A DNA stretch of 53,609 nucleotides, from contig JAPLLV010000030.1 of the NCBI GenBank assembly GCA_026387405.1, positions 1 through 53,609 on the forward strand. The letters run 5' to 3'. The position numbers were made by a program, and so were the translations under genes. This stretch comes from Candidatus Omnitrophota bacterium. Lineage in GTDB: Bacteria; Omnitrophota; Gorgyraeia; Gygaellales; Profunditerraquicolaceae. The notes beneath the pieces were generated by a model, which saw only the letters and a list, made by a program, of their open reading frames with translations, made no database searches and was not told the DNA's origin. Shown here one piece after another: positions 26,540 to 45,936 of the stretch; the stretch's first letter is position 1; each line of letters begins with the position of its first letter.

Positions 26540-26554
26540 GTCTAAAACAACTAC

Positions 26555-26645
26555 CTATTCCTACGCTGGCATTATCCAGATCAGGTTCTCGGGTCATCCG
26601 CTCTTACAGCGGAACTCTCAGGCCGTTTCACGACCTCCCCGTATT
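26555..26645 (-). ncRNA. TPP riboswitch
   Basis: Minus strand: gggg..ctgaga..gaccc..gaacctgatctggataatgccagcgtaggaa, the canonical THI-box motifs. Confidence 0.95.
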
Positions 26646-26679
26646 TACATTTTCATTAAACCACAAAATAATACCGGAG

Positions 26680-37579: not shown

Positions 37580-38170
37580 CTATCTTGACACTAGAAATAT
37601 CCCGGTATTGGCAAAGAGATTGGGGAAGAAAATAACCCGCCTCTTGATCCCTAAATACACCGCGCGCTCGATCTTTGTATCATTCTTACGGCAATAATCC
37701 AAGAAATCGAGTATGCTGAAGAAATGCAGGTTGGGGCTTTCGTACCAGGTATAGGGCAAAGTCTTTGTAACCGGGGCCCTGCCGGAAAAACCCAGCTGAA
37801 GCCGGGCCTTAAAATAGGCGAAGTTTGGAAAACCCACGATTACTTTCTTGCCCACGCGCAAGGCATCCTGAAACACCTTGTCAAAATGCTCGACCTGCTG
37901 CAGGCTCTGGTTCAGGATAACGTAATCGAATGACCCGTCCTGGTATTCGGCTAGGCCGGTGTCAATATCCCCGTGGAAGACATTTAAAGCCCTGGCTACA
38001 CATTGATAGATAGCCTGCTCGTCTATCTCTATACCCTGGCCACGCACCTCTTTATTCTTTACCAAAAGTTCCAGAAGCTCTCCCGCGCCGCATCCCAGAT
38101 CCAGCACTGACGCGCGCGGAGGAATAATATCCAGGATCACCTTATGGTCTATGCGAATATCGGATCTCAT
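37580..38170 (-). CDS. metW: Methionine biosynthesis protein MetW
   Basis: LDLGCGAG, DYVILNQSLQ, GFPNF, LPYTWYESPNLH; follows metX. Confidence 0.95.
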   Translation of the reverse strand: MRSDIRIDHKVILDIIPPRASVLDLGCGAGELLELLVKNKEVRGQGIEIDEQAIYQCVARALNVFHGDIDTGLAEYQDGSFDYVILNQSLQQVEHFDKVFQDALRVGKKVIVGFPNFAYFKARLQLGFSGRAPVTKTLPYTWYESPNLHFFSILDFLDYCRKNDTKIERAVYLGIKRRVIFFPNLFANTGIFLVSR

Positions 38171-39312
38171 AGTTTGGCCTCATTTTGGCTTACCGAGAAT
38201 ACCTTTTTTAAAAAATGCTTCACCAGATGCGTCTCTTCCTCAAATTCCAAAAGAAACGCGTCATGTCCATAAGTAGAATCTATCTCGCAGTAAGATGCCT
38301 CAAGCCCGGCGAACTTACAGGCTTTGATGATCTCTTTGGACTGGTATGCCGGGTATAACCAATCCGACTTAAAGGCAATTACCAACACCTTTACCTTTAA
38401 TCCTTTCCATACTTCCTGTAAAGGCTTACTCCTGGTAGCATCAAAATTATCCATAGCCTTGGTAATATAAAGGTAAGAATTGGCGTCAAAGCGCTTGACG
38501 AAATTATCGCCGCGGTAACGCAGGTAGCCCTCCACTTCAAAATCAGCGGTGAATTTGAATTGCTCGCTATCTTTCTTCTTCTGCCTGCCGAATTTATCGG
38601 CCATTGAGGCATCGCTCATATAAGTGATATGCCCGATCATCCTGGCCACTGCCAGGCCTTTTGCGGGATGAGCCCCGCCGTAATAATCGCCATCTTTCCA
38701 GCAGGGATCAGCCATGATCGCCTGCCTGCCCACTTCATCAAAGGCGATCTGCTGCGGCGAATGTCTCATCGCCGTGGCGATGGGAATGGCGCTATGTATC
38801 TTATTCGGATACTTCACCAGCCACGCAAGGGCCTGCATACCGCCCATAGACCCGCCTACCACCGTCAACAGCTTCTTGATGCCCAGATATTCGATCAGCC
38901 TCTTTTGGCATTCGACCATATCGCCTATGCTTACTATGGGAAAATCAAGGCAATAGGTTTTGTTGGTCCTGGGATTAATGCTTGAAGGCCCGGTAGAACC
39001 TGCGCATCCTCCCAGGATATTGGAACAGATAACAAAGTATTTATTGGTATCAAAGGCCTTCTCCGGTCCAACCATAGAATCCCACCAACCCGGGTCTTTT
39101 TCTCCCTCGTGGAAACCGGCAACATGGGCATCTCCGGATAGGGCGTGGAGGATCAAGACCGCGTTGGTCTTTTCCTTATTCAACTCGCCGTAAGTTTCGT
39201 AAGCAATAGTTACCGGCCCTAACCTGGCGCCGGATTCCAGTTTCAATTCATCCGGTGGGTTAGCAAAAGTAAAGTATTGGGTCTTGACAACGCCTAAACT
39301 CTTCTTTTCCAT
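38167..39312 (-). CDS. metX: Homoserine O-acetyltransferase
   Basis: HALSGD, GGCAGSTGP, GGSMGGMQ, RFDANSY, SDWLYP, GHDAFL. Confidence 0.95.
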   Translation of the reverse strand: MEKKSLGVVKTQYFTFANPPDELKLESGARLGPVTIAYETYGELNKEKTNAVLILHALSGDAHVAGFHEGEKDPGWWDSMVGPEKAFDTNKYFVICSNILGGCAGSTGPSSINPRTNKTYCLDFPIVSIGDMVECQKRLIEYLGIKKLLTVVGGSMGGMQALAWLVKYPNKIHSAIPIATAMRHSPQQIAFDEVGRQAIMADPCWKDGDYYGGAHPAKGLAVARMIGHITYMSDASMADKFGRQKKKDSEQFKFTADFEVEGYLRYRGDNFVKRFDANSYLYITKAMDNFDATRSKPLQEVWKGLKVKVLVIAFKSDWLYPAYQSKEIIKACKFAGLEASYCEIDSTYGHDAFLLEFEEETHLVKHFLKKVFSVSQNEAKL

Positions 39313-40241
39313 TACGCGTACTCCTGAAATAGCCAGGTAGAGAGATAGCGCTCTCCGGTATCCGGCAATATTACAACTATGGTTTTCCCTTCAGAGCCCT
39401 TGCGTTTGGCAACCTCAAGGGCCGCCCACATAGCCGCTCCGCTGGAGATACCGACCAGGATCCCTTCTTTGCGCGCTAATTCCTTGGCAATGTTTCCGGC
39501 GTCTTCATTTTTAACCGTGATGATCTCATCGAGTAATTTCGTATTTAAAACACCAGGCACGAACCCTGCCCCTATACCCTGGATCTTGTGCGGTCCGGGT
39601 TTGCCTCCGGAAAGGACCGGAGAATCCGCCGGCTCAACGCCTATCAGCTTGACCTGAGGCTTCTTTTTCTTCAATACTTCTCCTACTCCGGTGATCGTCC
39701 CTCCTGTGCCTATACCGGAAATAAAAATATCAACGCTCCCCCCGGTGTCGCCCCATATCTCTTCGGCAGTAGTCTTACGATGTATCTCGGGGTTTGCCGG
39801 ATTATTGAACTGCTGGGGCATAAAACTATTCGGTGTATTTTTAACCAGCTCTTCCGCCTTCTCAATCGCTCCGCGCATACCTTTTGCGCCTTCGGTTAAA
39901 ACAAGTTCCGCGCCAAAGATTTTCAAGAGCTGCCTGCGTTCAAGGCTCATGGTATCCGGCATAGTCAGGATAAGACGATAGCCCTTGGCTGCCGCCACAA
40001 ACGCCAGGGCAATCCCGGTATTCCCGCTAGTCGGTTCAATGATCACCGAATCTTTTTTCAGGAGCCCTTTTTTCTCTGCGTCCTCAACCATAGCTAATCC
40101 GATCCTGTCTTTGACACTGGACAGAGGATTGAAAGACTCAAGCTTAGCTAAGATATTTGCCTCAAGCCCTGCGCTAAGTTTATTAATACGCACCAACGGC
40201 GTGCGGCCGACAGTCTTAGTAATATCGCTATAGATGTTCAT
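39312..40241 (-). CDS. cysK: Cysteine synthase A
   Basis: [45 protein letters not shown]. Confidence 0.97.
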
Positions 40242-40314: not shown

Positions 40315-41341
40315 GGGCATAATATCCAAAAAGTGTTGGTGCCCGATTTTATAAGTACTTGTATTTCTTAACGATAATGCTATTTTATTACTTGTTTATT
40401 AAACCCGTTCAATAAAGGAATCTTTATGATAAAAAAAGCACTGTCCCAAATGTGGGATGTAATAAGTGTTGTAAATCGTTCATCTGGCAAAGAGCGGATA
40501 ATAAAAGGTACCGCGAACAACATTGGTTTAAGTTATGGGTCATCGAAAGCTATACCGTTCGGCAACTTGTTAATCTATCAAACTATAGCAAAACGAAACT
40601 AAGGCGTATTATTCATTATTGGCTCAGCCAGTTGCCCAAAGAACCCATTGATCTTTCAAAACATAAATACCTTATTTACGATGGTACGTATTTCCATAAA
40701 AATGGCTGTTTAATTTGCCTGATGGATTCGGTGCGCCCGAAAATTATTGCAAATATTTATACTGCTAAAGAAGGCTTTAAGAATGTACGCCCATGGCTTG
40801 AAGAACTTAAGCAGCAAGGCCTTGCCCCTAATTTTATCTCGATGGACGGCGAAAGATCCGTTATTCGTGCCATAAAGGCAACATGGCGAAAGGTTAAGAT
40901 CCAACGCTGCCTTTTCCATATACAGCGCGAAGGAATGCGCTGGTTAAGATCGCATCCAAAGACCTTAGCAGGTAAAGAACTAAGGCAGCTGCTTAGTACT
41001 TTGAACAATGTTAAAAGTATCAAAGAGCGGAACGAATTCACAAGAAGCTTTCGGCAATGGATCAGACGCTATTACAATTTTGTGCAATCATTGCCAACAA
41101 GTACCGTTGCTTTTAAGGATTTAAAGCGTACAATCGCATTAATTCACAATGCGCTTCCAGATATGTTTTATTATCTTAAGAATCCTTTAGCGCCGGCAAC
41201 AACGAATTCGCTAGAAAGTTTTTATTCACGGCTTAAAGCCGATTACCAACGTCACCGTGGGCTAAGCGAAACTCACAAAATTCACTACTTAAAATGGTAT
41301 TGTTACTACAAAAATACCAACACTCTGTGAGTATTAAGCCC
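40315..41341 (+). mobile_element. IS256/Mutator-like insertion sequence, about 1.03 kb
   Basis: 26-bp imperfect TIRs gggcataatatccaaaaagtgttggt / accaacactctgtgagtattaagccc; AT-richer than the flanks. Confidence 0.85.
40426..41330 (+). pseudogene. DDE transposase (IS256-like) with a disrupted N-terminal Zn-ribbon; open frame 40452-41330
   Basis: YDGTY, MDGE, IQRCLFH, TTNSLES; ATG 40426, HCPKCG and CNKC..SF lie in three different frames. Confidence 0.7.
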
Positions 41342-41368: not shown

Positions 41369-42661
41369 TCACGCTTTCCCTAAAGCCTGTTCTATATCGC
41401 CAATAATATCGTCAATATGTTCGATGCCGATTGACAAACGGATAAAATCCGGCGTCACCCCGGTAGACAACTGTTCCTGGGGAGATAATTGCTGGTGTGT
41501 GGTGGTTGCCGGGTGTATAGCCAGACTTTTGGCATCTCCGATATTGGCCAGATGCGATATTAACTGAAGCGAATCAATGAATTTCTTTCCCCCCTCTAAA
41601 CCGCTCTTAATGCCAAATCCTATAATTGCGCCCGCGCCTTTAGGGAGGTATTTTTTAACCCGCGGCTTTTCCGGGCTCGAGTCCAGTCCCGGATAATTCA
41701 CCCAGGCAACCTTGGGATGTTCTTCAAGATATTTCGCTACTGCCAGCGCGTTCTCGGAATGTCTGGGCATCCTCAGATGCAGCGTCTCTAAACCCTGCAG
41801 GAACAAGAAGGCGTTAAAAGGAGACATTGCCGGGCCAAGGTCGCGGAGCAGGGAAACCCTCGCCTTGATAATATACGCGATGTTCCCCAATGGTTTTAAT
41901 GCCTCCACAAAGTTTATTCCGTGATAACTGGGATCGGCTCCGGCGATCAAGGGAAACTTACCGTTAGTCCAGTCAAATTTCCCTGAATCGACGATTAACC
42001 CGCCGAGCGAAGTACCGTGCCCTCCGATGAATTTCGTGGCCGAATAGACCACGATATCCACGCCATAATCAATTGGCCTTAATAGATACGGCGAAACGGT
42101 ATTATCCAGGACAAACGGGATGCCGTTTTTGTGCGTCAGTTTTGATATCCCTTCCAGGTCCGCGACATCCAATTTAGGGTTACCGATAGATTCCGCGTAA
42201 ACAGCCTTGGTCTTAGGGATAATCGCCTTTTGCATCGCGTCAAGGTCATTGGATTTGACAAATTTTACCTTTAGGCCTAAACGCGGGAACGTATAGTGAA
42301 AGAGGTTATAGGTCCCGCCGTAGAGGTTATCCGCGGAGACGATCTCATCGCCTGCCTGAGCGATATTCAATAGCGCCAAGGTAATCGCAGACTGACCGCT
42401 TGCAACAGCCAGCCCTCCCACGCCGCCGTCAAGAAGAGCGATCCTTCTCTCTAGCACGTCATTGGTAGGATTCATCAGGCGGGTATAGATATTGCCGAAT
42501 TCCTTGAGCCCAAAAAGATTTGCCGCGTGCTCAGTGCTTTTGAACTGATAAGAGGTAGTCTGATATATCGGCACGGCCCTTGAGCCGGTTGTGGGATCCG
42601 CTTCCTGCCCTCCGTGTAAAGCCAGTGTCTCGACTTTTAGTTTTGCGTCTATCTTGCTCAT
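41369..42661 (-). CDS. metY: O-acetylhomoserine sulfhydrylase
   Basis: [55 protein letters not shown]. Confidence 0.95.
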
Positions 42662-42754: not shown

Positions 42755-43588
42755 TTAGAATGCGTATTGAGCGCTTAATACTACACCGTTGCCTAACCCG
42801 ACCTTGCCGGCCGACTTATGGTCTCCGGCATCGACATATGCCAGGACAAGGGTAAGATTTTTGTTCGGCGTCCATGCTATATGCGCATCCCAATAATCAG
42901 CGTCTTTCCAATCTTTATAATGCGCTCCCTGTTTATATTCAAAACCGGCAATTAAATCCTTAGGCAGGATCACATCAATGTTGCCGAAGCCGGTCTCCCT
43001 CCTGTCCTTATCATATCCAAACACTCCTGTAGTCTTGCCTTTAGTGGAGAGTACGCCCCCGGAAAGCAGCACCGGCCTGGGCAGGCGGGTAATAAGCTTT
43101 GTCGCCACCACATAATAATCTTCACCGCCTGCATCAATTCCCGATCCCACATTAGAAGTATGTTTAAAGATGGTCCCTGCTGATAACGCGGGTATGAATT
43201 TAGTACTAAAGGAATTCTCCGGCAATAACAATAGCTTTGCCCCAACGTTACTCTTACGCTTGGTGGCGGCATTATCCTGGGCAATTGTTTCATACCCATA
43301 AGAAACTTCCAGTCTTTTAAAGAACGTATCGGCAACGCCTATGGCGGTCCAGTCGACTTTAACATGGTCGAGATTAACATACCAGGCGCCGAATCTCGGT
43401 TTACCTGCAATCTCGGCGTTACCTGCTTTAAAATGACTATCTTCGCCATCTGAATCTGCCAGGTACGCCAGAGGATTAAACGCTACCCCTCCTACGCCTT
43501 CCAAATTCGTAAGCGGAGCCCCGGCAAAGACGTTCCTCGTAACTAAAACCGCAACAACAAGTATAGCCAGAAAAGTAAGCTTTCTCAT
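42755..43588 (-). CDS. Outer-membrane beta-barrel protein, DUF3034-like
   Basis: Signal peptide, LEGVGG..FNPLAYL, alternating beta-strands, C-terminal SAQYAF barrel signature. Confidence 0.65.
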   Translation of the reverse strand: MRKLTFLAILVVAVLVTRNVFAGAPLTNLEGVGGVAFNPLAYLADSDGEDSHFKAGNAEIAGKPRFGAWYVNLDHVKVDWTAIGVADTFFKRLEVSYGYETIAQDNAATKRKSNVGAKLLLLPENSFSTKFIPALSAGTIFKHTSNVGSGIDAGGEDYYVVATKLITRLPRPVLLSGGVLSTKGKTTGVFGYDKDRRETGFGNIDVILPKDLIAGFEYKQGAHYKDWKDADYWDAHIAWTPNKNLTLVLAYVDAGDHKSAGKVGLGNGVVLSAQYAF

Positions 43589-43702: not shown

Positions 43703-43894
43703 TTAAATACCACCTCCTTCCTCAAGCTTCCACACATCATCAAAACGCCTTCTCTGTGTCATCTCTATCTGGATTATCTTATTATTATGCACCTTAATAT
43801 TTACTTCCCCATATTCTAAAGACCCTACGGCGTCGCTGATCTCTTTTATAATTGTGTCGTTCAGTAATTTTTTAGAACTTTGAATGATGCTCAT
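43703..43894 (-). CDS. YezD/OscA (DUF2292) small protein
   Basis: I..AV.SLEYGEV.I.VHN.KIIQIE.T...RF; SD aaggag. Confidence 0.85.
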   Translation of the reverse strand: MSIIQSSKKLLNDTIIKEISDAVGSLEYGEVNIKVHNNKIIQIEMTQRRRFDDVWKLEEGGGI

Positions 43895-43914
43895 CTGTTT
43901 CTCCTTGTCATAGG

Positions 43915-43954
43915 AAAAAAATACCCACTAACCTTTTTTATATCCGGTAGTGGG
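43915..43954 (-). terminator. Attenuator-type terminator upstream of the YezD-like gene
   Basis: cccactacc..ggttagtggg stem followed by tattttttcc. Confidence 0.65.
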
Positions 43955-43998
43955 CTGCGCCGCCCTATGTATTATATTTTCCTCGTGGCTACATAGGT

Positions 43999-44055
43999 TC
44001 AACCTCCCCCACCGCAGCAACAACACATTGCCATCATATTGGAATAAATAATCAT
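43999..44055 (-). CDS. Putative Cys/Met leader peptide MIIYSNMMAMCCCCGGGG
   Basis: Hand translation; aaagg SD just after the Rrf2 stop; terminator downstream; precedes Cys/Met biosynthesis genes. Confidence 0.75.
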   Translation of the reverse strand: MIIYSNMMAMCCCCGGGG

Positions 44056-44068
44056 TTTTGTATGCCTT

Positions 44069-44509
44069 TTATATCGAATAAAGAAGCGCTTCTTGCCTGG
44101 CATTAGTTTCAGCCGCCAAAGTCTCAAAGGTTACCTTATCCACGACATTCGAGGTAGCCTCAGCAACATTCTGCCAGATCTTTCTAAACGCGCATTTATA
44201 CACATCAGCGCATTCTGAATAACCATGTTTTACACAAGCTATGGGTTCTATCGGCCCATCGATAAACCTGATCACCTCTCCTACGGTCATCTGGGACGGC
44301 GCCCTGGATAACATATAACCTCCGATATTGCCGCGCCTGCTCTCTACAAAACCACCCCTCTTTAACTCAAGTAATACCTGCTCCAGGAATTTGAGCGGCG
44401 CGTCTATTTGCCTGGCTAATTCATGTATGGTGATTACGTTGCTGCCATAATGCGCAGCCAAATACAATAGCGCTTTTAAAGCATAATCTCCTTTATAAGT
44501 TATTTTCAT
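44069..44509 (-). CDS. Rrf2-family regulator (IscR/CymR-like, 3 Cys)
   Basis: ITYKGDYALKAL, FLEQVL, SRRGNIGGY, DGPIEPIAC..C..C; start moved to MKITYK. Confidence 0.92.
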   Translation of the reverse strand: MKITYKGDYALKALLYLAAHYGSNVITIHELARQIDAPLKFLEQVLLELKRGGFVESRRGNIGGYMLSRAPSQMTVGEVIRFIDGPIEPIACVKHGYSECADVYKCAFRKIWQNVAEATSNVVDKVTFETLAAETNARQEALLYSI

Positions 44510-44517
44510 GGTTAGCT

Positions 44518-44575
44518 CATAATCTACTAATTCTATCAACATAGTAGAGTATACATGAAAAAAAATATTTGTCAA
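44518..44575 (-). promoter_or_regulatory. Sigma70 promoter plus palindromic Rrf2-type operator
   Basis: TTGACA-16 nt-TATACT; tctacta..tagtaga inverted repeat just downstream of the -10 box. Confidence 0.7.
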
Positions 44576-44583
44576 GTATTTTT

Positions 44584-45936
44584 TTATTTTGCCAGGGAAA
44601 TGCCTGCGGCATCCAGGATATCCTTACCTTCCTTCCAGGGGTTTATGTAACGGGCGATGCTTAGCTGCCCGTTCTTCTCTTTTAAATCAATGACCTCCTT
44701 TTTATCCACCGGGTAAAATACCTCAACCTTGGGCAAGAGGATGGCATCCTCGTTCTCCTCTTTTACCAGGGCCACCCTTTCGTCGCTTAAATAGACAAGG
44801 GAACCGATCGGCCAGACTCCCATGATCTGAAAAAACTTTTCCAGAAGCTCAGGTTCAAAAGAAGTACCCTTTTCCTTCAACATGATATTATAGATCGTGT
44901 CCGGGGCGTAATCCGCCTTATAGCTCCTCTTTTGGAAAAGGGCATCATAGACATCGCAGATGGTCACGATCAATGAGGCAACGTGGGGTTTCTTAAGATT
45001 CTGGACCTTGGGATAGCCTGAAAGGTCATACTTAAGATGGTGCTCAAAGGCAACCACCACCGGTAGAATGCCAAGGCTGTCCACATAATCCAGAAGCAGT
45101 TCAGCGCCCAGGAGGGCGTGGCTCCTGATCTTATCAAATTCCTCATCCGTCAATTTCTCTGTCTTTCTGATAATCTTGCGGGATATGTAAAGCTTGCCGA
45201 TATCGTGGAAGAGGGCAGCAGTCCCCAGGTCCATCACGTCGTCTTTAGAAAAACCTGCCTTGGAGGCAAGATGCATCGATAGAATTGCCACATTCAGGAG
45301 ATGGACAGAAGTTCCTAGATCATATCTCCTCATGGTGGATACCTTGAGTAATTCCGGAGACTGGTTTATCAACCCCTCCATCATGCCCTGCATCACCAGC
45401 TTCAAACCCAGAGGGTCGATCGACCCTCCGTCCAGGACATTTGTGAGGGATTGGGAAACACTGTGAAGAGAATCGACAAATACCGCGCCCACTCCTTTTT
45501 CTTCCTGCGACGGTGGGACTTGAGCCTTTAATTTACCGACGACTATGTTCCTGACACCCGCCAGCATCAAATATTCCTGTACCTCTTTTTTAATCTCCAG
45601 TTTTCCGGCGCCGAGAAATCCGATAAAGGCATCCAGCTCCCTTTTCTCTATGCCGCGCAAGAAAGTCACCTTCTCTATCTTCTTCTCTTTTAGGTACGAT
45701 ATCGGCGAAAGGTTCAATCTGGCCGCGTCAGAAATAACTTGATCCTCAAAAGCCAATTCTCCTTCTATAACTCCGAGGGTAAAGGTTTGCCTCCCGGCAA
45801 GGACCGCCTGCAGGCTTTTATAGGGGGGGGACAGCGAATCCTTGAAAAGCCTGTGCCCCAGGCCGTAGAGTTTGGCCGTCTGCAGGCTGATAAGTAAATC
45901 CCTTAAGAATATCTCGATCTCTCCTAGGCTTGCCAT
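44584..45936 (-). CDS. HD-GYP domain phosphohydrolase
   Basis: HLLNV, FHDIGK, FEHH..YDLSGYP, DVYDAL..RSYK. Confidence 0.9.
   Translation of the reverse strand: MASLGEIEIFLRDLLISLQTAKLYGLGHRLFKDSLSPPYKSLQAVLAGRQTFTLGVIEGELAFEDQVISDAARLNLSPISYLKEKKIEKVTFLRGIEKRELDAFIGFLGAGKLEIKKEVQEYLMLAGVRNIVVGKLKAQVPPSQEEKGVGAVFVDSLHSVSQSLTNVLDGGSIDPLGLKLVMQGMMEGLINQSPELLKVSTMRRYDLGTSVHLLNVAILSMHLASKAGFSKDDVMDLGTAALFHDIGKLYISRKIIRKTEKLTDEEFDKIRSHALLGAELLLDYVDSLGILPVVVAFEHHLKYDLSGYPKVQNLKKPHVASLIVTICDVYDALFQKRSYKADYAPDTIYNIMLKEKGTSFEPELLEKFFQIMGVWPIGSLVYLSDERVALVKEENEDAILLPKVEVFYPVDKKEVIDLKEKNGQLSIARYINPWKEGKDILDAAGISLAK

What the first reader, a model, noticed from the sequence alone, without database searches (positions are those of the whole stretch)
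43895..44068. Probable Cys/Met-sensing leader-peptide attenuator (MIIYSNMMAMCCCCGGGG)
Seen: right after the Rrf2 stop is an 18-codon ORF (43999-44055) with three clustered Met codons and four consecutive Cys codons. It is followed by a cctatgta/tacatagg hairpin and a cccacta/tagtggg + T-run terminator, then the YezD-like gene, the DUF3034-like gene, metY, cysK, metX and metW. The Gly codons (GGUGGG) are complementary to the 5' arm of the terminator (CCCACU). Known: trp/his/thr-type attenuators use runs of the regulated amino acid, whereas Cys/Met operons are usually controlled by S-boxes, T-boxes or protein regulators; I see no S-box or T-box here. Inference: stalling on Met/Cys codons frees the G-rich antiterminator arm, giving dual sulfur-amino-acid sensing layered on Rrf2 repression.
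Basis: partly seen in the sequence, partly recalled or inferred. Interest (0 to 1): 0.9.

Follow-up and report, generated by a model that had tools for sequence, protein, structure and literature searches.

The report
Met/Cys leader-peptide attenuator in Omnitrophota
A tiny upstream gene packed with methionine and cysteine codons, followed by a switchable transcription stop signal, most likely lets the ribosome itself sense shortage of the sulfur amino acids and turn on the genes that make them; the principle is known, but this family, in uncultivated Omnitrophota bacteria, appears to be undescribed.

Summary
On the minus strand an 18-codon ORF (44055-43999, MIIYSNMMAMCCCCGGGG*) is followed by a hairpin, a 10-bp terminator with a U7 run, and the DUF2292, DUF3034, metY, cysK, metX and metW genes.

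It is not chance. Of 80 related DUF2292 loci, 31 carry a homologous Met/Cys-rich small ORF. Of 46 metagenome loci fetched by the terminator sequence alone, 42 have it. The consensus is ..MMMCCMAMC[CR]LRGxGGPPM*.

In 66 unique ORFs the last 22 codons are 15% Cys and 21% Met, against 1.2% and 2.1% in the genome. The Gly codons pair with the terminator's 5' arm. Modelled stalling at the Met/Cys codons keeps this antiterminator, and a ribosome at the stop codon removes it. Three relatives pair the Cys codons with the downstream ribosome-binding site instead.

In other genomes the same leader precedes metY directly, or cysH-type sulfate-assimilation operons.

Best reading, at about 0.75: a classical ribosome-mediated attenuator that reads Cys-tRNA and/or Met-tRNA charging. 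Nothing is shown experimentally. Cys-codon attenuators are already known in mycobacteria and upstream of Rhodobacterales cysS, so this is a new variant, not a new principle.

The parts
44548..44575 (-). Sigma-70-like promoter TTGACA-16-TATACT upstream of the Rrf2 gene; probable start of the transcript that carries Rrf2, the leader and the operon
   Evidence: 11 of 12 hexamer positions match. No comparable promoter lies between Rrf2 and the leader.
44519..44552 (.). Inverted repeat ATAATCTACTA / TAGTAGAGTAT (11-nt arms, 12 nt apart) overlapping the -10 box; candidate Rrf2 operator
   Evidence: Similar repeats sit next to promoters in relatives. Not tested further.
44069..44512 (-). Rrf2-family regulator gene (147 aa from the ATG at 44512)
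   Evidence: Pfam Rrf2, 4.5e-36; closest specific model is CymR, below its cut-off.
43999..44055 (-). Leader ORF MIIYSNMMAMCCCCGGGG* (18 codons plus TGA). Met codons 7, 8 and 10 lie at 44037-44026, Cys codons 11-14 at 44025-44014, Gly codons 15-18 at 44013-44002
   Evidence: A homologous ORF is present in 72 of 76 covariance-model hits.
44006..44014 (-). Antiterminator 5' strand CGGUGGGGG (last base of the Cys run plus Gly codons); pairs with the terminator's 5' arm
   Evidence: folds truncated before the 3' arm. Family-wide: 75% of cells paired against 27-53% when slid; duplex -17.9 against -13.2 kcal/mol for shuffles.
43964..43997 (-). Middle hairpin CCUAUGUA / UACAUAGG, nested inside the antiterminator. 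In most relatives its 5' arm holds the last Pro-Pro-Met codons and the stop
   Evidence: Family helix 75.9% paired; 1 of 500 shuffles reaches it.
43915..43955 (-). Intrinsic terminator: 5' arm 43955-43946, loop 43945-43934, 3' arm 43933-43923, U7 run 43921-43915
   Evidence: 10 pairs, -14.6 kcal/mol. Family: 88.9% paired, 5 pairs changed on both sides, 0 of 500 shuffles.
43703..43894 (-). First regulated gene: DUF2292 / YezD-like small protein
   Evidence: PF10055, 1e-11; weak match to OscA, a sulfur starvation response protein, 33 bits against a cut-off of 85.
42755..43588 (-). DUF3034 protein with a signal-peptide-like N-terminus
   Evidence: PF11231, 2.2e-20.
41369..42661 (-). metY, O-acetylhomoserine sulfhydrylase (homocysteine synthase)
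37580..40241 (-). cysK (40241-39312), metX (39312-38167) and metW (38170-37580). In this genome a transposase-like ORF on the + strand (40452-41330) separates them from metY
   Evidence: In relatives metY is followed directly by cysK.

Best explanation
This is a ribosome-mediated (leader-peptide) transcription attenuator for a sulfur-assimilation and Cys/Met biosynthesis operon.

The transcript from the Rrf2 promoter runs through the Rrf2 gene into a short translated ORF whose core is a cluster of Met and Cys codons. The Gly codons that follow (family consensus GGU-AGA-GGA-GGU-CCG) are complementary to the 5' arm of an intrinsic terminator and to the ACGGGAC box just before it.

When Cys-tRNA or Met-tRNA is scarce, the ribosome stalls in the Met/Cys cluster. 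It then melts the small helices that hold the G-rich strand (CCUCC:GGAGG and, possibly, AUGAUG:CAUCAU) but leaves the G-rich strand itself uncovered. That strand pairs with the terminator's 5' arm, and RNA polymerase reads through into DUF2292, DUF3034, metY, cysK, metX and metW.

When both amino acids are plentiful, the ribosome runs to the stop codon and covers the G-rich strand. The terminator forms and transcription ends at the U run.

Shown here: the ORF, the terminator, the complementarity, their conservation and their gene context. Inferred: translation of the ORF, stalling, which amino acid is sensed, and the direction of regulation.
For: 1. Conservation of the ORF. Of 80 DUF2292 loci from species-representative genomes, 31 have a Met/Cys-rich small ORF directly upstream. 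Of these, 27 also have a hairpin plus T run. Most have an AGGA/GGAG-like ribosome-binding site 6-10 nt before the ATG.

2. A test not biased by the ORF. 46 metagenome loci were fetched with a pattern covering only the pre-terminator and terminator. 42 of 46 have the ORF, ending 24-49 nt (most at 25-29 nt) before the pattern.

3. Codon content. In 66 unique ORFs the last 22 codons are 15.2% Cys and 20.7% Met. The genome's long ORFs have 1.2% and 2.1%. CC occurs in 58 of 66. Both Cys codons are used (TGT 136, TGC 93). The N-terminal 8-12 codons vary but stay in frame.

4. Codon periodicity. Third codon positions vary more (entropy 1.15 against 0.96 and 0.91). No such periodicity is seen after the stop.

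5. RNA helices on 69 distinct sequences.
- Terminator: 88.9% paired, 0 of 500 shuffles.
- CCUCC:GGAGG: 90.9%, 0 of 500.
- Stop hairpin: 75.9%, 1 of 500.
- Antiterminator: 75.0% against 27-53% when slid, 6-9 of 500.

6. Antiterminator strength. The duplex averages -17.9 kcal/mol against -13.2 for dinucleotide shuffles, with z below -1 in 48 of 65.

7. Ribosome masking. The net energy gain from forming the terminator averages -7.8 kcal/mol with the ribosome at the stop. With the A site at codons -18, -16, -15 or -12 it is -3.6 to -4.7. The difference has the predicted sign in 46-54 of 63 sequences. In the window it is -1.5 to +0.9 at Met 7-10 and -6.5 at the stop.

8. Same sensor, other outputs. 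L019 and L026 lack the terminator, and their MFE folds pair the Cys codons with the DUF2292 ribosome-binding site.

9. Same sensor, other cargo. DUF2292 is the first gene in 60 of 75 loci. metY is first in L108, L128 and L136. In L095, L097, L098 and L130 the leader precedes PAPS reductase, a PiT transporter and then cysK and/or a siroheme-type NAD-binding protein; the protein families were read on L097, L130 and L095, with a DUF2061 protein first in L095 and L098.

10. Copy number. One copy per genome in the 7 of 151 phylum genomes that have it.
Against: - There is no expression, 3'-end or ribosome data. No RNA run listed holds the locus.
- Equilibrium folds of the full leader favour the terminator in most sequences whatever is masked. 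The crude measure '5' arm paired with anything' separates the states poorly: 0.65 free, 0.57 at the stop, 0.67 on average when stalled.
- Covariation for the antiterminator is weak, because the 5' arm is nearly invariant.
- The AUGAUG:CAUCAU helix is not supported above controls.
- With the A site at codon -11, the stalled state barely differs from the stop state (+0.9 kcal/mol; 21 of 63 sequences go the other way).
- In the window's copy, stalls at Cys 12-14 would favour termination (-8.4 to -13.3 kcal/mol). The fixed 30-nt duplex window gives z = +1.44 for this copy. Its ribosome-binding site is weak (AAGG, 11 nt before the ATG). Its first Met/Cys cluster has decayed to MIIYS.
- The peptide order MMMCCxAMC..GGPPM is more conserved than codon counting alone requires.
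- Met codons as sensors have no precedent that I could find.
Confidence: 0.75

Rival explanations
1. A nascent-peptide arrest sensor of the TnaC or SpeFL type. The conserved peptide (MMMCCxAMC..GGPPM-stop) would arrest the ribosome at or near the stop codon when a small sulfur metabolite (Cys, Met, SAM or homocysteine) is bound in the exit tunnel. The arrested ribosome would hold the G-rich strand covered, so the terminator forms. Without the ligand, release is fast and the antiterminator forms.
For: The peptide order is strongly conserved. Anchored at the stop: G at -5 in 54 of 66 and at -4 in 55, P at -3 in 36 and at -2 in 40, M or V at -1 in 54. The Ala codon in MAM uses all four synonymous codons. 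A ribosome at the stop is what removes the antiterminator in the folds. That Pro near a stop codon slows release is recalled, not tested here.
Against: The C-terminal conservation is largely explained by RNA pairing: GGAGG and CCGCCUAUG lie in helices with support, and the second Pro codon is mostly CCU in the aligned sequences. The window's own copy ends before PPM, and this is confirmed in independent contigs. The terminator-less variants keep only RMCC and have unrelated C-termini. Cys is often replaced by Arg, Ser or Gly through single-base changes that keep the pairing.
Confidence: 0.1
2. A functional Cys/Met-rich micropeptide, for example one that binds metal or sulfur. It would be co-expressed with the sulfur genes, and the downstream hairpin would be an ordinary partial terminator between cistrons.
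For: The small ORF is conserved at the peptide level across two phyla. A Cys/Met-rich composition would suit thiol or metal chemistry (inference only).
Against: The N-terminus varies freely. The Cys count ranges from 1 to 5, with Cys-to-Arg/Ser/Gly swaps. The ORF's 3' half is complementary to the terminator arm in 48 of 65 sequences at z below -1, which a mere neighbour would not need. Variants pair the Cys codons with the next gene's ribosome-binding site. The element always sits at the 5' end of sulfur operons of different composition.
Confidence: 0.05
3. A ligand-, tRNA- or protein-binding leader RNA (riboswitch-like) whose conserved sequence merely happens to be open for translation.
For: There are several conserved RNA helices and a conserved unpaired box, ACGGGACA, before the terminator.
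Against: No Rfam family matches. An ATG preceded by a ribosome-binding site and an in-frame stop at a fixed place are kept in 72 of 76 hits, although the first 8-12 codons are not conserved as sequence. Third positions vary more than first and second. Cys codons vary synonymously.
Confidence: 0.04
4. A start-stop or internal Shine-Dalgarno anchor acting as part of the switch. GGAGG lies 7-8 nt before an AUG or GUG that is directly followed by the stop. A ribosome could initiate there, or a terminating ribosome could be held there by anti-SD pairing. Either would cover the antiterminator strand.
For: AUG or GUG is the last sense codon in 54 of 66 ORFs. GGAGG-N7-8-AUG-UAA/UAG is seen in all four close relatives. 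It is kept in the window even though it is out of frame with the leader there.
Against: Both motifs lie in supported helices, which is enough to explain their conservation. There is no direct evidence.
Confidence: 0.05

Closest known systems
Classical leader-peptide attenuators of E. coli amino-acid operons (trp, his, thr, ilv); the architecture is recalled from textbook knowledge. PMC1183508 was seen only as an abstract in the listing.
   Same: A short translated ORF holds a cluster of codons for the operon's products. An intrinsic terminator follows. The antiterminator shares the terminator's 5' arm. A small upstream helix sequesters the antiterminator strand. The stop codon is placed so that a terminating ribosome covers that strand. 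Two amino acids may be read by one leader, as the thr leader reads Thr and Ile.
   Different: The regulatory codons are Met and Cys. The element often lies between cistrons, after the Rrf2 regulator gene, not at the 5' end of the transcript. It occurs in Omnitrophota and Elusimicrobiota. There is no sequence similarity to any Rfam leader family.
Polycysteine leaderless short ORFs of Mycobacterium smegmatis (Ms5788A; Canestrari et al., bioRxiv 10.1101/834739; abstract and Discussion read)
   Same: Runs of Cys codons in a short ORF upstream of cysteine-metabolism operons. Stalled ribosomes relieve attenuation. The terminator-less variants L019 and L026 also appear to sequester the ribosome-binding site.
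   Different: The mycobacterial ORFs are leaderless and act on translation. This family has a ribosome-binding site and, in most members, an intrinsic terminator with an antiterminator. It also carries as many Met as Cys codons. The two are not homologous.
uORFC-8-2 motif upstream of cysS in Rhodobacterales (Brewer et al. 2021, PMC8632094; passage read)
   Same: A predicted ribosome-mediated attenuator with tandem Cys codons, two stems and a U run.
   Different: It controls cysteinyl-tRNA synthetase, not biosynthesis. It has two Cys codons and no Met cluster. It is from another phylum and has an unrelated sequence.
Cys-rich candidate leader peptides upstream of cys and cbs operons in Actinobacteria (Seliverstov et al. 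2005, PMC1262725; passages read)
   Same: Short ORFs with runs of Cys codons near the stop, upstream of cysteine genes.
   Different: That paper reports no conserved terminator hairpins and proposes Rho-dependent termination.
S-box (SAM-I) riboswitches and T-boxes, the usual RNA controls of Met/Cys genes in Firmicutes
   Same: The same target genes (metY, cysK, metX) and the same output, premature termination.
   Different: They sense SAM or uncharged tRNA directly through RNA. Neither was found in the window or the genome.

Membership tests
Ribosome-mediated (leader-peptide) transcription attenuator | Short ORF with a start codon and ribosome-binding site in the leader | tested here: met
   ATG at 44055, 18 codons. 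The site is weak in the window (AAGG, 11 nt upstream) but clear in most relatives. The ORF is present in 72 of 76 covariance-model hits.
Ribosome-mediated (leader-peptide) transcription attenuator | Cluster of codons for the amino acid(s) the operon makes | tested here: met
   The window has 4 Cys and 4 Met in 18 codons. Family: Cys 15.2% and Met 20.7% of the last 22 codons, against 1.2% and 2.1% in the genome. The operon encodes metY, cysK, metX and metW.
Ribosome-mediated (leader-peptide) transcription attenuator | Intrinsic terminator between the leader ORF and the first structural gene | tested here: met
   10-pair stem plus U7 at 43955-43915. The conserved helix shows covariation.
Ribosome-mediated (leader-peptide) transcription attenuator | Antiterminator that excludes the terminator and is freed or covered according to ribosome position | tested here: met
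   In silico only. The effect is 3-4 kcal/mol on average, has the right sign in 46-54 of 63 sequences, and rests on weak covariation.
Ribosome-mediated (leader-peptide) transcription attenuator | Read-through rises when the cognate amino acid or charged tRNA is scarce | not testable with these tools
   No RNA data for this locus.
Mycobacterial polycysteine leaderless sORF attenuators | Leaderless mRNA starting at the sORF's AUG, with attenuation by sequestering the ribosome-binding site | tested here: not met
   The ORF lies after the Rrf2 gene and has its own ribosome-binding site. Output is a terminator. Only the variants L019 and L026 resemble the sequestering design.
SAM riboswitches and T-box | Match to the Rfam covariance models | tested here: not met
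   no match in the region, the window or the genome (92.9% complete).
Regulatory arrest peptides (TnaC-like) | Conserved peptide, essential at the amino-acid level, that arrests the ribosome at a defined codon | tested here: inconclusive
   The C-terminal GGPPM is common. It is absent from the window's copy and from the terminator-less variants, and it coincides with RNA helices.

The most novel reading that the evidence does not exclude
The leader is a true two-amino-acid sensor in which methionine codons, not only cysteine codons, act as regulatory codons. In the window's copy only the Met codons are well placed, and Met at position -12 is among the most conserved residues (46 of 66). To my knowledge, and in the searches, this would be the first methionine-reading leader-peptide attenuator. 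It would sit within an operon, behind its own Rrf2 repressor gene, and would be reused with either a transcriptional or a translational output. A bolder version: the conserved GGAGG-N7-AUG-stop and the Pro-Pro tail hold the terminating ribosome in place, so that termination of translation is itself a timed step.
Probability: 0.3. Interest if true: 0.7.

Novelty: new variant of a known kind. Interest (0 to 1): 0.58.

Why it matters
Omnitrophota are a large phylum known almost only from metagenomes, and next to nothing is known about how they regulate genes.

This element would show that classical ribosome-mediated attenuation operates there and in Elusimicrobiota. It would control the core of sulfur assimilation: metY, cysK, metX and metW, and in other genomes cysH, a PiT transporter and a siroheme-synthase-like protein. 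It would take the place that S-box riboswitches and T-boxes hold in Firmicutes.

It also adds a family with mixed Met and Cys regulatory codons to the short list of Cys-codon attenuators.

It ties the uncharacterised DUF2292 (YezD/OscA-like) and DUF3034 proteins firmly to sulfur amino-acid supply.

The covariance model can be used to annotate the element in metagenomes.

Tried and rejected
- **Known RNA families.** Scans of the region (E up to 10), the window (gathering scores) and the genome (SAM-I, T-box) gave nothing relevant.
- **Terminator scan.** The terminator was then established by folding.
- **Equilibrium folding with ribosome masks** did not separate the states, because the terminator dominates. 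I moved to folds truncated before the 3' arm and to energy differences. The first of these measures was also weak.
- **The AUGAUG:CAUCAU long-range helix** looked attractive by eye but does not exceed shuffled or slid controls. I keep it only as a possibility.
- **A wider regulon within one genome** was sought with the covariance model. It found one copy in the own genome and one per genome in 7 of 151 phylum genomes. The stricter filters used above 40 genomes may lose divergent copies.
- **Divergent leaders L035, L047 and L055** (MCMCPxTMTGGGWM type) were classed as members by eye. The model did not find them at E <= 0.01.
- **Rows dropped.** Seven rows (L027, L099, L100, L121, L132, L143, L144) were left out of the entropy count. 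Sequences without a T run or with a stem under 5 pairs were left out (n = 65 and 63 of 66-69 unique sequences).
- **RNA evidence.** No RNA holder is listed. One metatranscriptome from the same sample as a DNA holder laid nothing on the stretch. This says nothing about expression.
- **Literature.** Searches for a methionine-codon attenuator and for Omnitrophota RNA regulation found nothing pertinent. The search on DUF2292, YezD and OscA returned mostly noise. PMC2965389 was searched for Met and Cys leaders and has none. Supplementary files were not consulted, since they are closed; supplements of PMC8632094 and of 10.1101/834739 could hold motifs or sORF lists that bear on novelty.
- **Not used.** No protein database search was made with the leader peptide.
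Full report
**What is in the window**

The finding lies on the minus strand. A strong sigma-70-like promoter, TTGACA-16-TATACT at 44575-44548, matches 11 of 12 hexamer positions. It precedes an Rrf2-family regulator gene at 44512-44069 (Pfam 4.5e-36).

Thirteen bases after the Rrf2 stop, an ATG at 44055 opens an 18-codon ORF, MIIYSNMMAMCCCCGGGG, which ends with TGA at 44001-43999. Three elements follow:
- an 8-bp hairpin, CCUAUGUA/UACAUAGG, at 43997-43964;
- a 10-pair stem, GCCCACUACC/GGUUAGUGGGU, at 43955-43923 (-14.6 kcal/mol);
- a U7 run at 43921-43915.

The genes come next: DUF2292 (43894-43703), DUF3034, metY, a transposase-like ORF on the other strand, then cysK, metX and metW.

**Is it more than chance?**

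Within the genome it is an outlier. Four consecutive TGY codons occur three times in 1.92 Mb, counting both strands. Among 11,795 small ATG-ORFs, only this one has at least 4 Cys and at least 4 Met. Long ORFs hold 1.2% Cys and 2.1% Met.

The DNA is also reproduced without a single difference in contigs from two further studies. So the unusual early stop of this copy is not an artefact of this assembly.

**Comparative evidence**

The organism is a Candidatus Omnitrophota bacterium, judging by the record titles of the closest loci. I took the DUF2292 protein as an anchor and fetched 80 loci from species-representative genomes.
- 31 of 80 have a Met/Cys-rich small ORF directly upstream of DUF2292.
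- 27 of those also have a hairpin plus T run.
- About 30 others have the Rrf2 stop abutting DUF2292, with no leader.
- The Planctomycetota loci have a divergent promoter region instead.

Three of the loci with a leader are labelled Elusimicrobiota-type (L064, L066, L091).

The consensus peptide has 8-12 variable residues followed by M-M-M-C-C-M-A-M-C-[C/R/S]-L-R-G-x-G-G-P-P-[M/V]-stop.

A search not biased by the ORF used a DNA pattern that covers only the pre-terminator box and the terminator. It returned 46 metagenome loci. Of these, 42 have the same ORF, ending 24-49 nt (most at 25-29 nt) before the pattern.

A covariance model built from 18 sequences hit 76 of 79 sources. Of the 76 hits, 72 have the ORF, giving 65 distinct peptides.

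In 66 unique ORFs:
- the last 22 codons are 15.2% Cys and 20.7% Met;
- CC occurs in 58 and MM in 43;
- TGT and TGC are both used, 136 and 93 times.

Third codon positions vary more than first and second (entropy 1.15 against 0.96 and 0.91). The 60 nt after the stop show no such periodicity.

**RNA structure**

Counts were made on 69 distinct aligned sequences.

| Helix | Cells paired | Control |
|---|---|---|
| Terminator | 88.9%; 5 pairs changed on both sides | 0 of 500 shuffles |
| CCUCC (right after the second Cys cluster) with GGAGG (Gly codons) | 90.9% | 0 of 500 |
| Stop-codon hairpin | 75.9% | 1 of 500 |
| Antiterminator: GGUAGAGGA plus GUCC, with the terminator's 5' arm plus GGAC | 75.0% | 27-53% when slid; 6-9 of 500 shuffles |
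| AUGAUG with CAUCAU | 63.6% | not above controls |

Covariation for the antiterminator is weak because the 5' arm hardly varies. Where it does vary, the partner follows: U-A 35, U-G 12 and C-G 3 at one pair.

Sequence by sequence, the duplex between the last 30 nt of the ORF and the terminator arm averages -17.9 kcal/mol, against -13.2 for dinucleotide shuffles. z is below -1 in 48 of 65 and below -2 in 27 of 65.

The pieces therefore form the classical 1:2 / 2:3 / 3:4 arrangement.

**Ribosome masking**

Equilibrium folds favour the terminator whatever is masked. This is also true of the trp leader (recalled), so it does not decide the matter.

I then measured the net gain from forming the terminator under a mask running from 15 nt before to 12 nt after the A-site codon. 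This footprint is recalled from the ribosome-profiling literature.

| Ribosome position (A site) | Mean net gain, kcal/mol |
|---|---|
| Stop codon | -7.8 |
| Codons -18, -16, -15, -12 | -3.6 to -4.7 |
| Codon -11 | -6.9 |

The difference from the stop state has the predicted sign in 46-54 of 63 sequences. At codon -11 it nearly vanishes.

In the window's copy the values differ by codon:

| A-site codon | Net gain, kcal/mol |
|---|---|
| Met 7-10 | -1.5 to +0.9 |
| Cys 11 | -4.6 |
| Cys 12 | -8.4 |
| Cys 13 | -12.1 |
| Cys 14 | -13.3 |
| Stop | -6.5 |

So in this copy the Met codons and the first Cys are the well-placed sensors. The last three Cys codons lie too close to the G-rich strand.

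Compared with the family, this copy is somewhat decayed:
- its first cluster reads MIIYS where relatives have MMMCC, each difference a single base;
- its second cluster is expanded to CCCC;
- one extra base creates a stop three codons early, so the PPM tail is lost.

**Other outputs and other cargo**

L019 and L026 keep only ..RMCC[F/L].. and have no terminator. In their MFE folds the Cys codons pair with the DUF2292 ribosome-binding site (UGUUGCUUCC with GGAGGCAGCA; UUGUCUUUC with GGAGGACAA). L044 is less clear, and L018 has lost its T run.

Across the 75 non-window loci hit by the model:
- DUF2292 is the first gene in 60;
- at least 12 loci with enough flank show the same order, DUF2292, DUF3034, metY, cysK, metX and sometimes metW;
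- metY is first in L108, L128 and L136;
- in L095, L097, L098 and L130 the leader precedes PAPS reductase, a PiT-family transporter and then cysK and/or a siroheme-type NAD-binding protein (families read on L097, L130 and L095), with a DUF2061 protein first in L095 and L098.

One sensor reused with two expression platforms and several sulfur-related cargoes is the signature of a cis-regulatory element. It argues against a mere neighbouring micropeptide.

**Mechanism and rivals**

The best-supported reading is a ribosome-mediated attenuator that reads the supply of charged tRNA-Cys and/or tRNA-Met (confidence 0.75).

The main rival is a metabolite-dependent arrest peptide, suggested by the conserved GGPPM-stop. 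Three points count against it:
- the tail coincides with supported RNA helices;
- it is missing in the window's copy and in the terminator-less variants;
- Cys is often swapped for Arg, Ser or Gly by changes that keep the pairing.

A riboswitch and a functional micropeptide are less likely still.

One feature remains unexplained. GGAGG lies 7-8 nt before a terminal AUG or GUG that is followed directly by the stop (54 of 66 ORFs). The window keeps this arrangement even though it is out of frame there.

**What is known**

- Cys-codon leaders were predicted upstream of actinobacterial cys and cbs operons, without terminators (PMC1262725, passages).
- They were shown experimentally, as translational attenuators, in M. 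smegmatis (10.1101/834739, abstract and Discussion).
- They were predicted with a terminator upstream of cysS in Rhodobacterales (PMC8632094, passage).

My searches found no leader-peptide attenuator with methionine codons and nothing on RNA regulation in Omnitrophota. The library is not complete, and supplements were closed.

I therefore rate this a new variant of a known kind. The principle is textbook. The family, the phylum, the mixed Met/Cys codon set and the position behind the repressor gene appear to be new.

**Limits**

All of this is computation on DNA. No transcript end, footprint or response to starvation has been seen, and the relatives are not statistically independent.

Noticed in passing
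window 40452-41330 (+): A transposase-like ORF (weak Transposase_mut, IS66 and MULE matches) sits on the opposite strand between metY and cysK. In relatives metY is followed directly by cysK. In this genome, cysK, metX and metW may therefore be uncoupled from the leader.
   Followed up: partly
window 44519-44552: An inverted repeat, ATAATCTACTA / TAGTAGAGTAT, overlaps the -10 box of the Rrf2 promoter. It is a candidate Rrf2 operator. Similar repeats lie next to promoters upstream of DUF2292 in relatives: L051, L053 and L061, and TAGTAGGA-type repeats in the Planctomycetota loci L065-L087.
   Followed up: partly
window 43703-43894 (-): The DUF2292 protein gives a weak match, below the cut-off, to NCBIfam OscA (sulfur starvation response protein; 33 bits against 85). 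Its fixed position behind the Met/Cys leader ties this uncharacterised family, and DUF3034 after it, to sulfur amino-acid supply.
   Followed up: partly
window 43990-44007, and the relatives in alignment A3: GGAGG lies 7-8 nt before an AUG (or GUG) that is directly followed by a stop codon. This looks like a minimal start-stop unit or an internal Shine-Dalgarno anchor. AUG or GUG is the last sense codon in 54 of 66 leaders. The window keeps the arrangement although it is out of frame with its leader ORF.
   Followed up: partly
L030, about 1325-1500 (between terminator and DUF2292); L031, after its terminator: L030 has three tandem copies of a hairpin-forming unit of about 50 nt (GCAGGAAGCGGCACACCGGACC..GGGCCGGGTGTAA) inserted between the attenuator and DUF2292. 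L031 has one similar copy. It may be a small repetitive extragenic element.
   Followed up: no
L095, L097, L098, L130, L114: In other Omnitrophota genomes the same leader heads sulfate-assimilation operons: (DUF2061 or DUF2292), PAPS reductase, a PiT/PHO4-family transporter, cysK and a siroheme-type NAD-binding protein. In L105 it heads a phosphate-type porin and a periplasmic binding protein.
   Followed up: yes
window 26541-26651 (-): A TPP riboswitch (Rfam RF00059, 67 bits) is the only Rfam family above its gathering score in the window.
   Followed up: no
window 44584-45936 (-): An HD/HD_5 domain protein (HD-GYP-like) is encoded directly upstream of the Rrf2 promoter on the same strand.
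   Followed up: no
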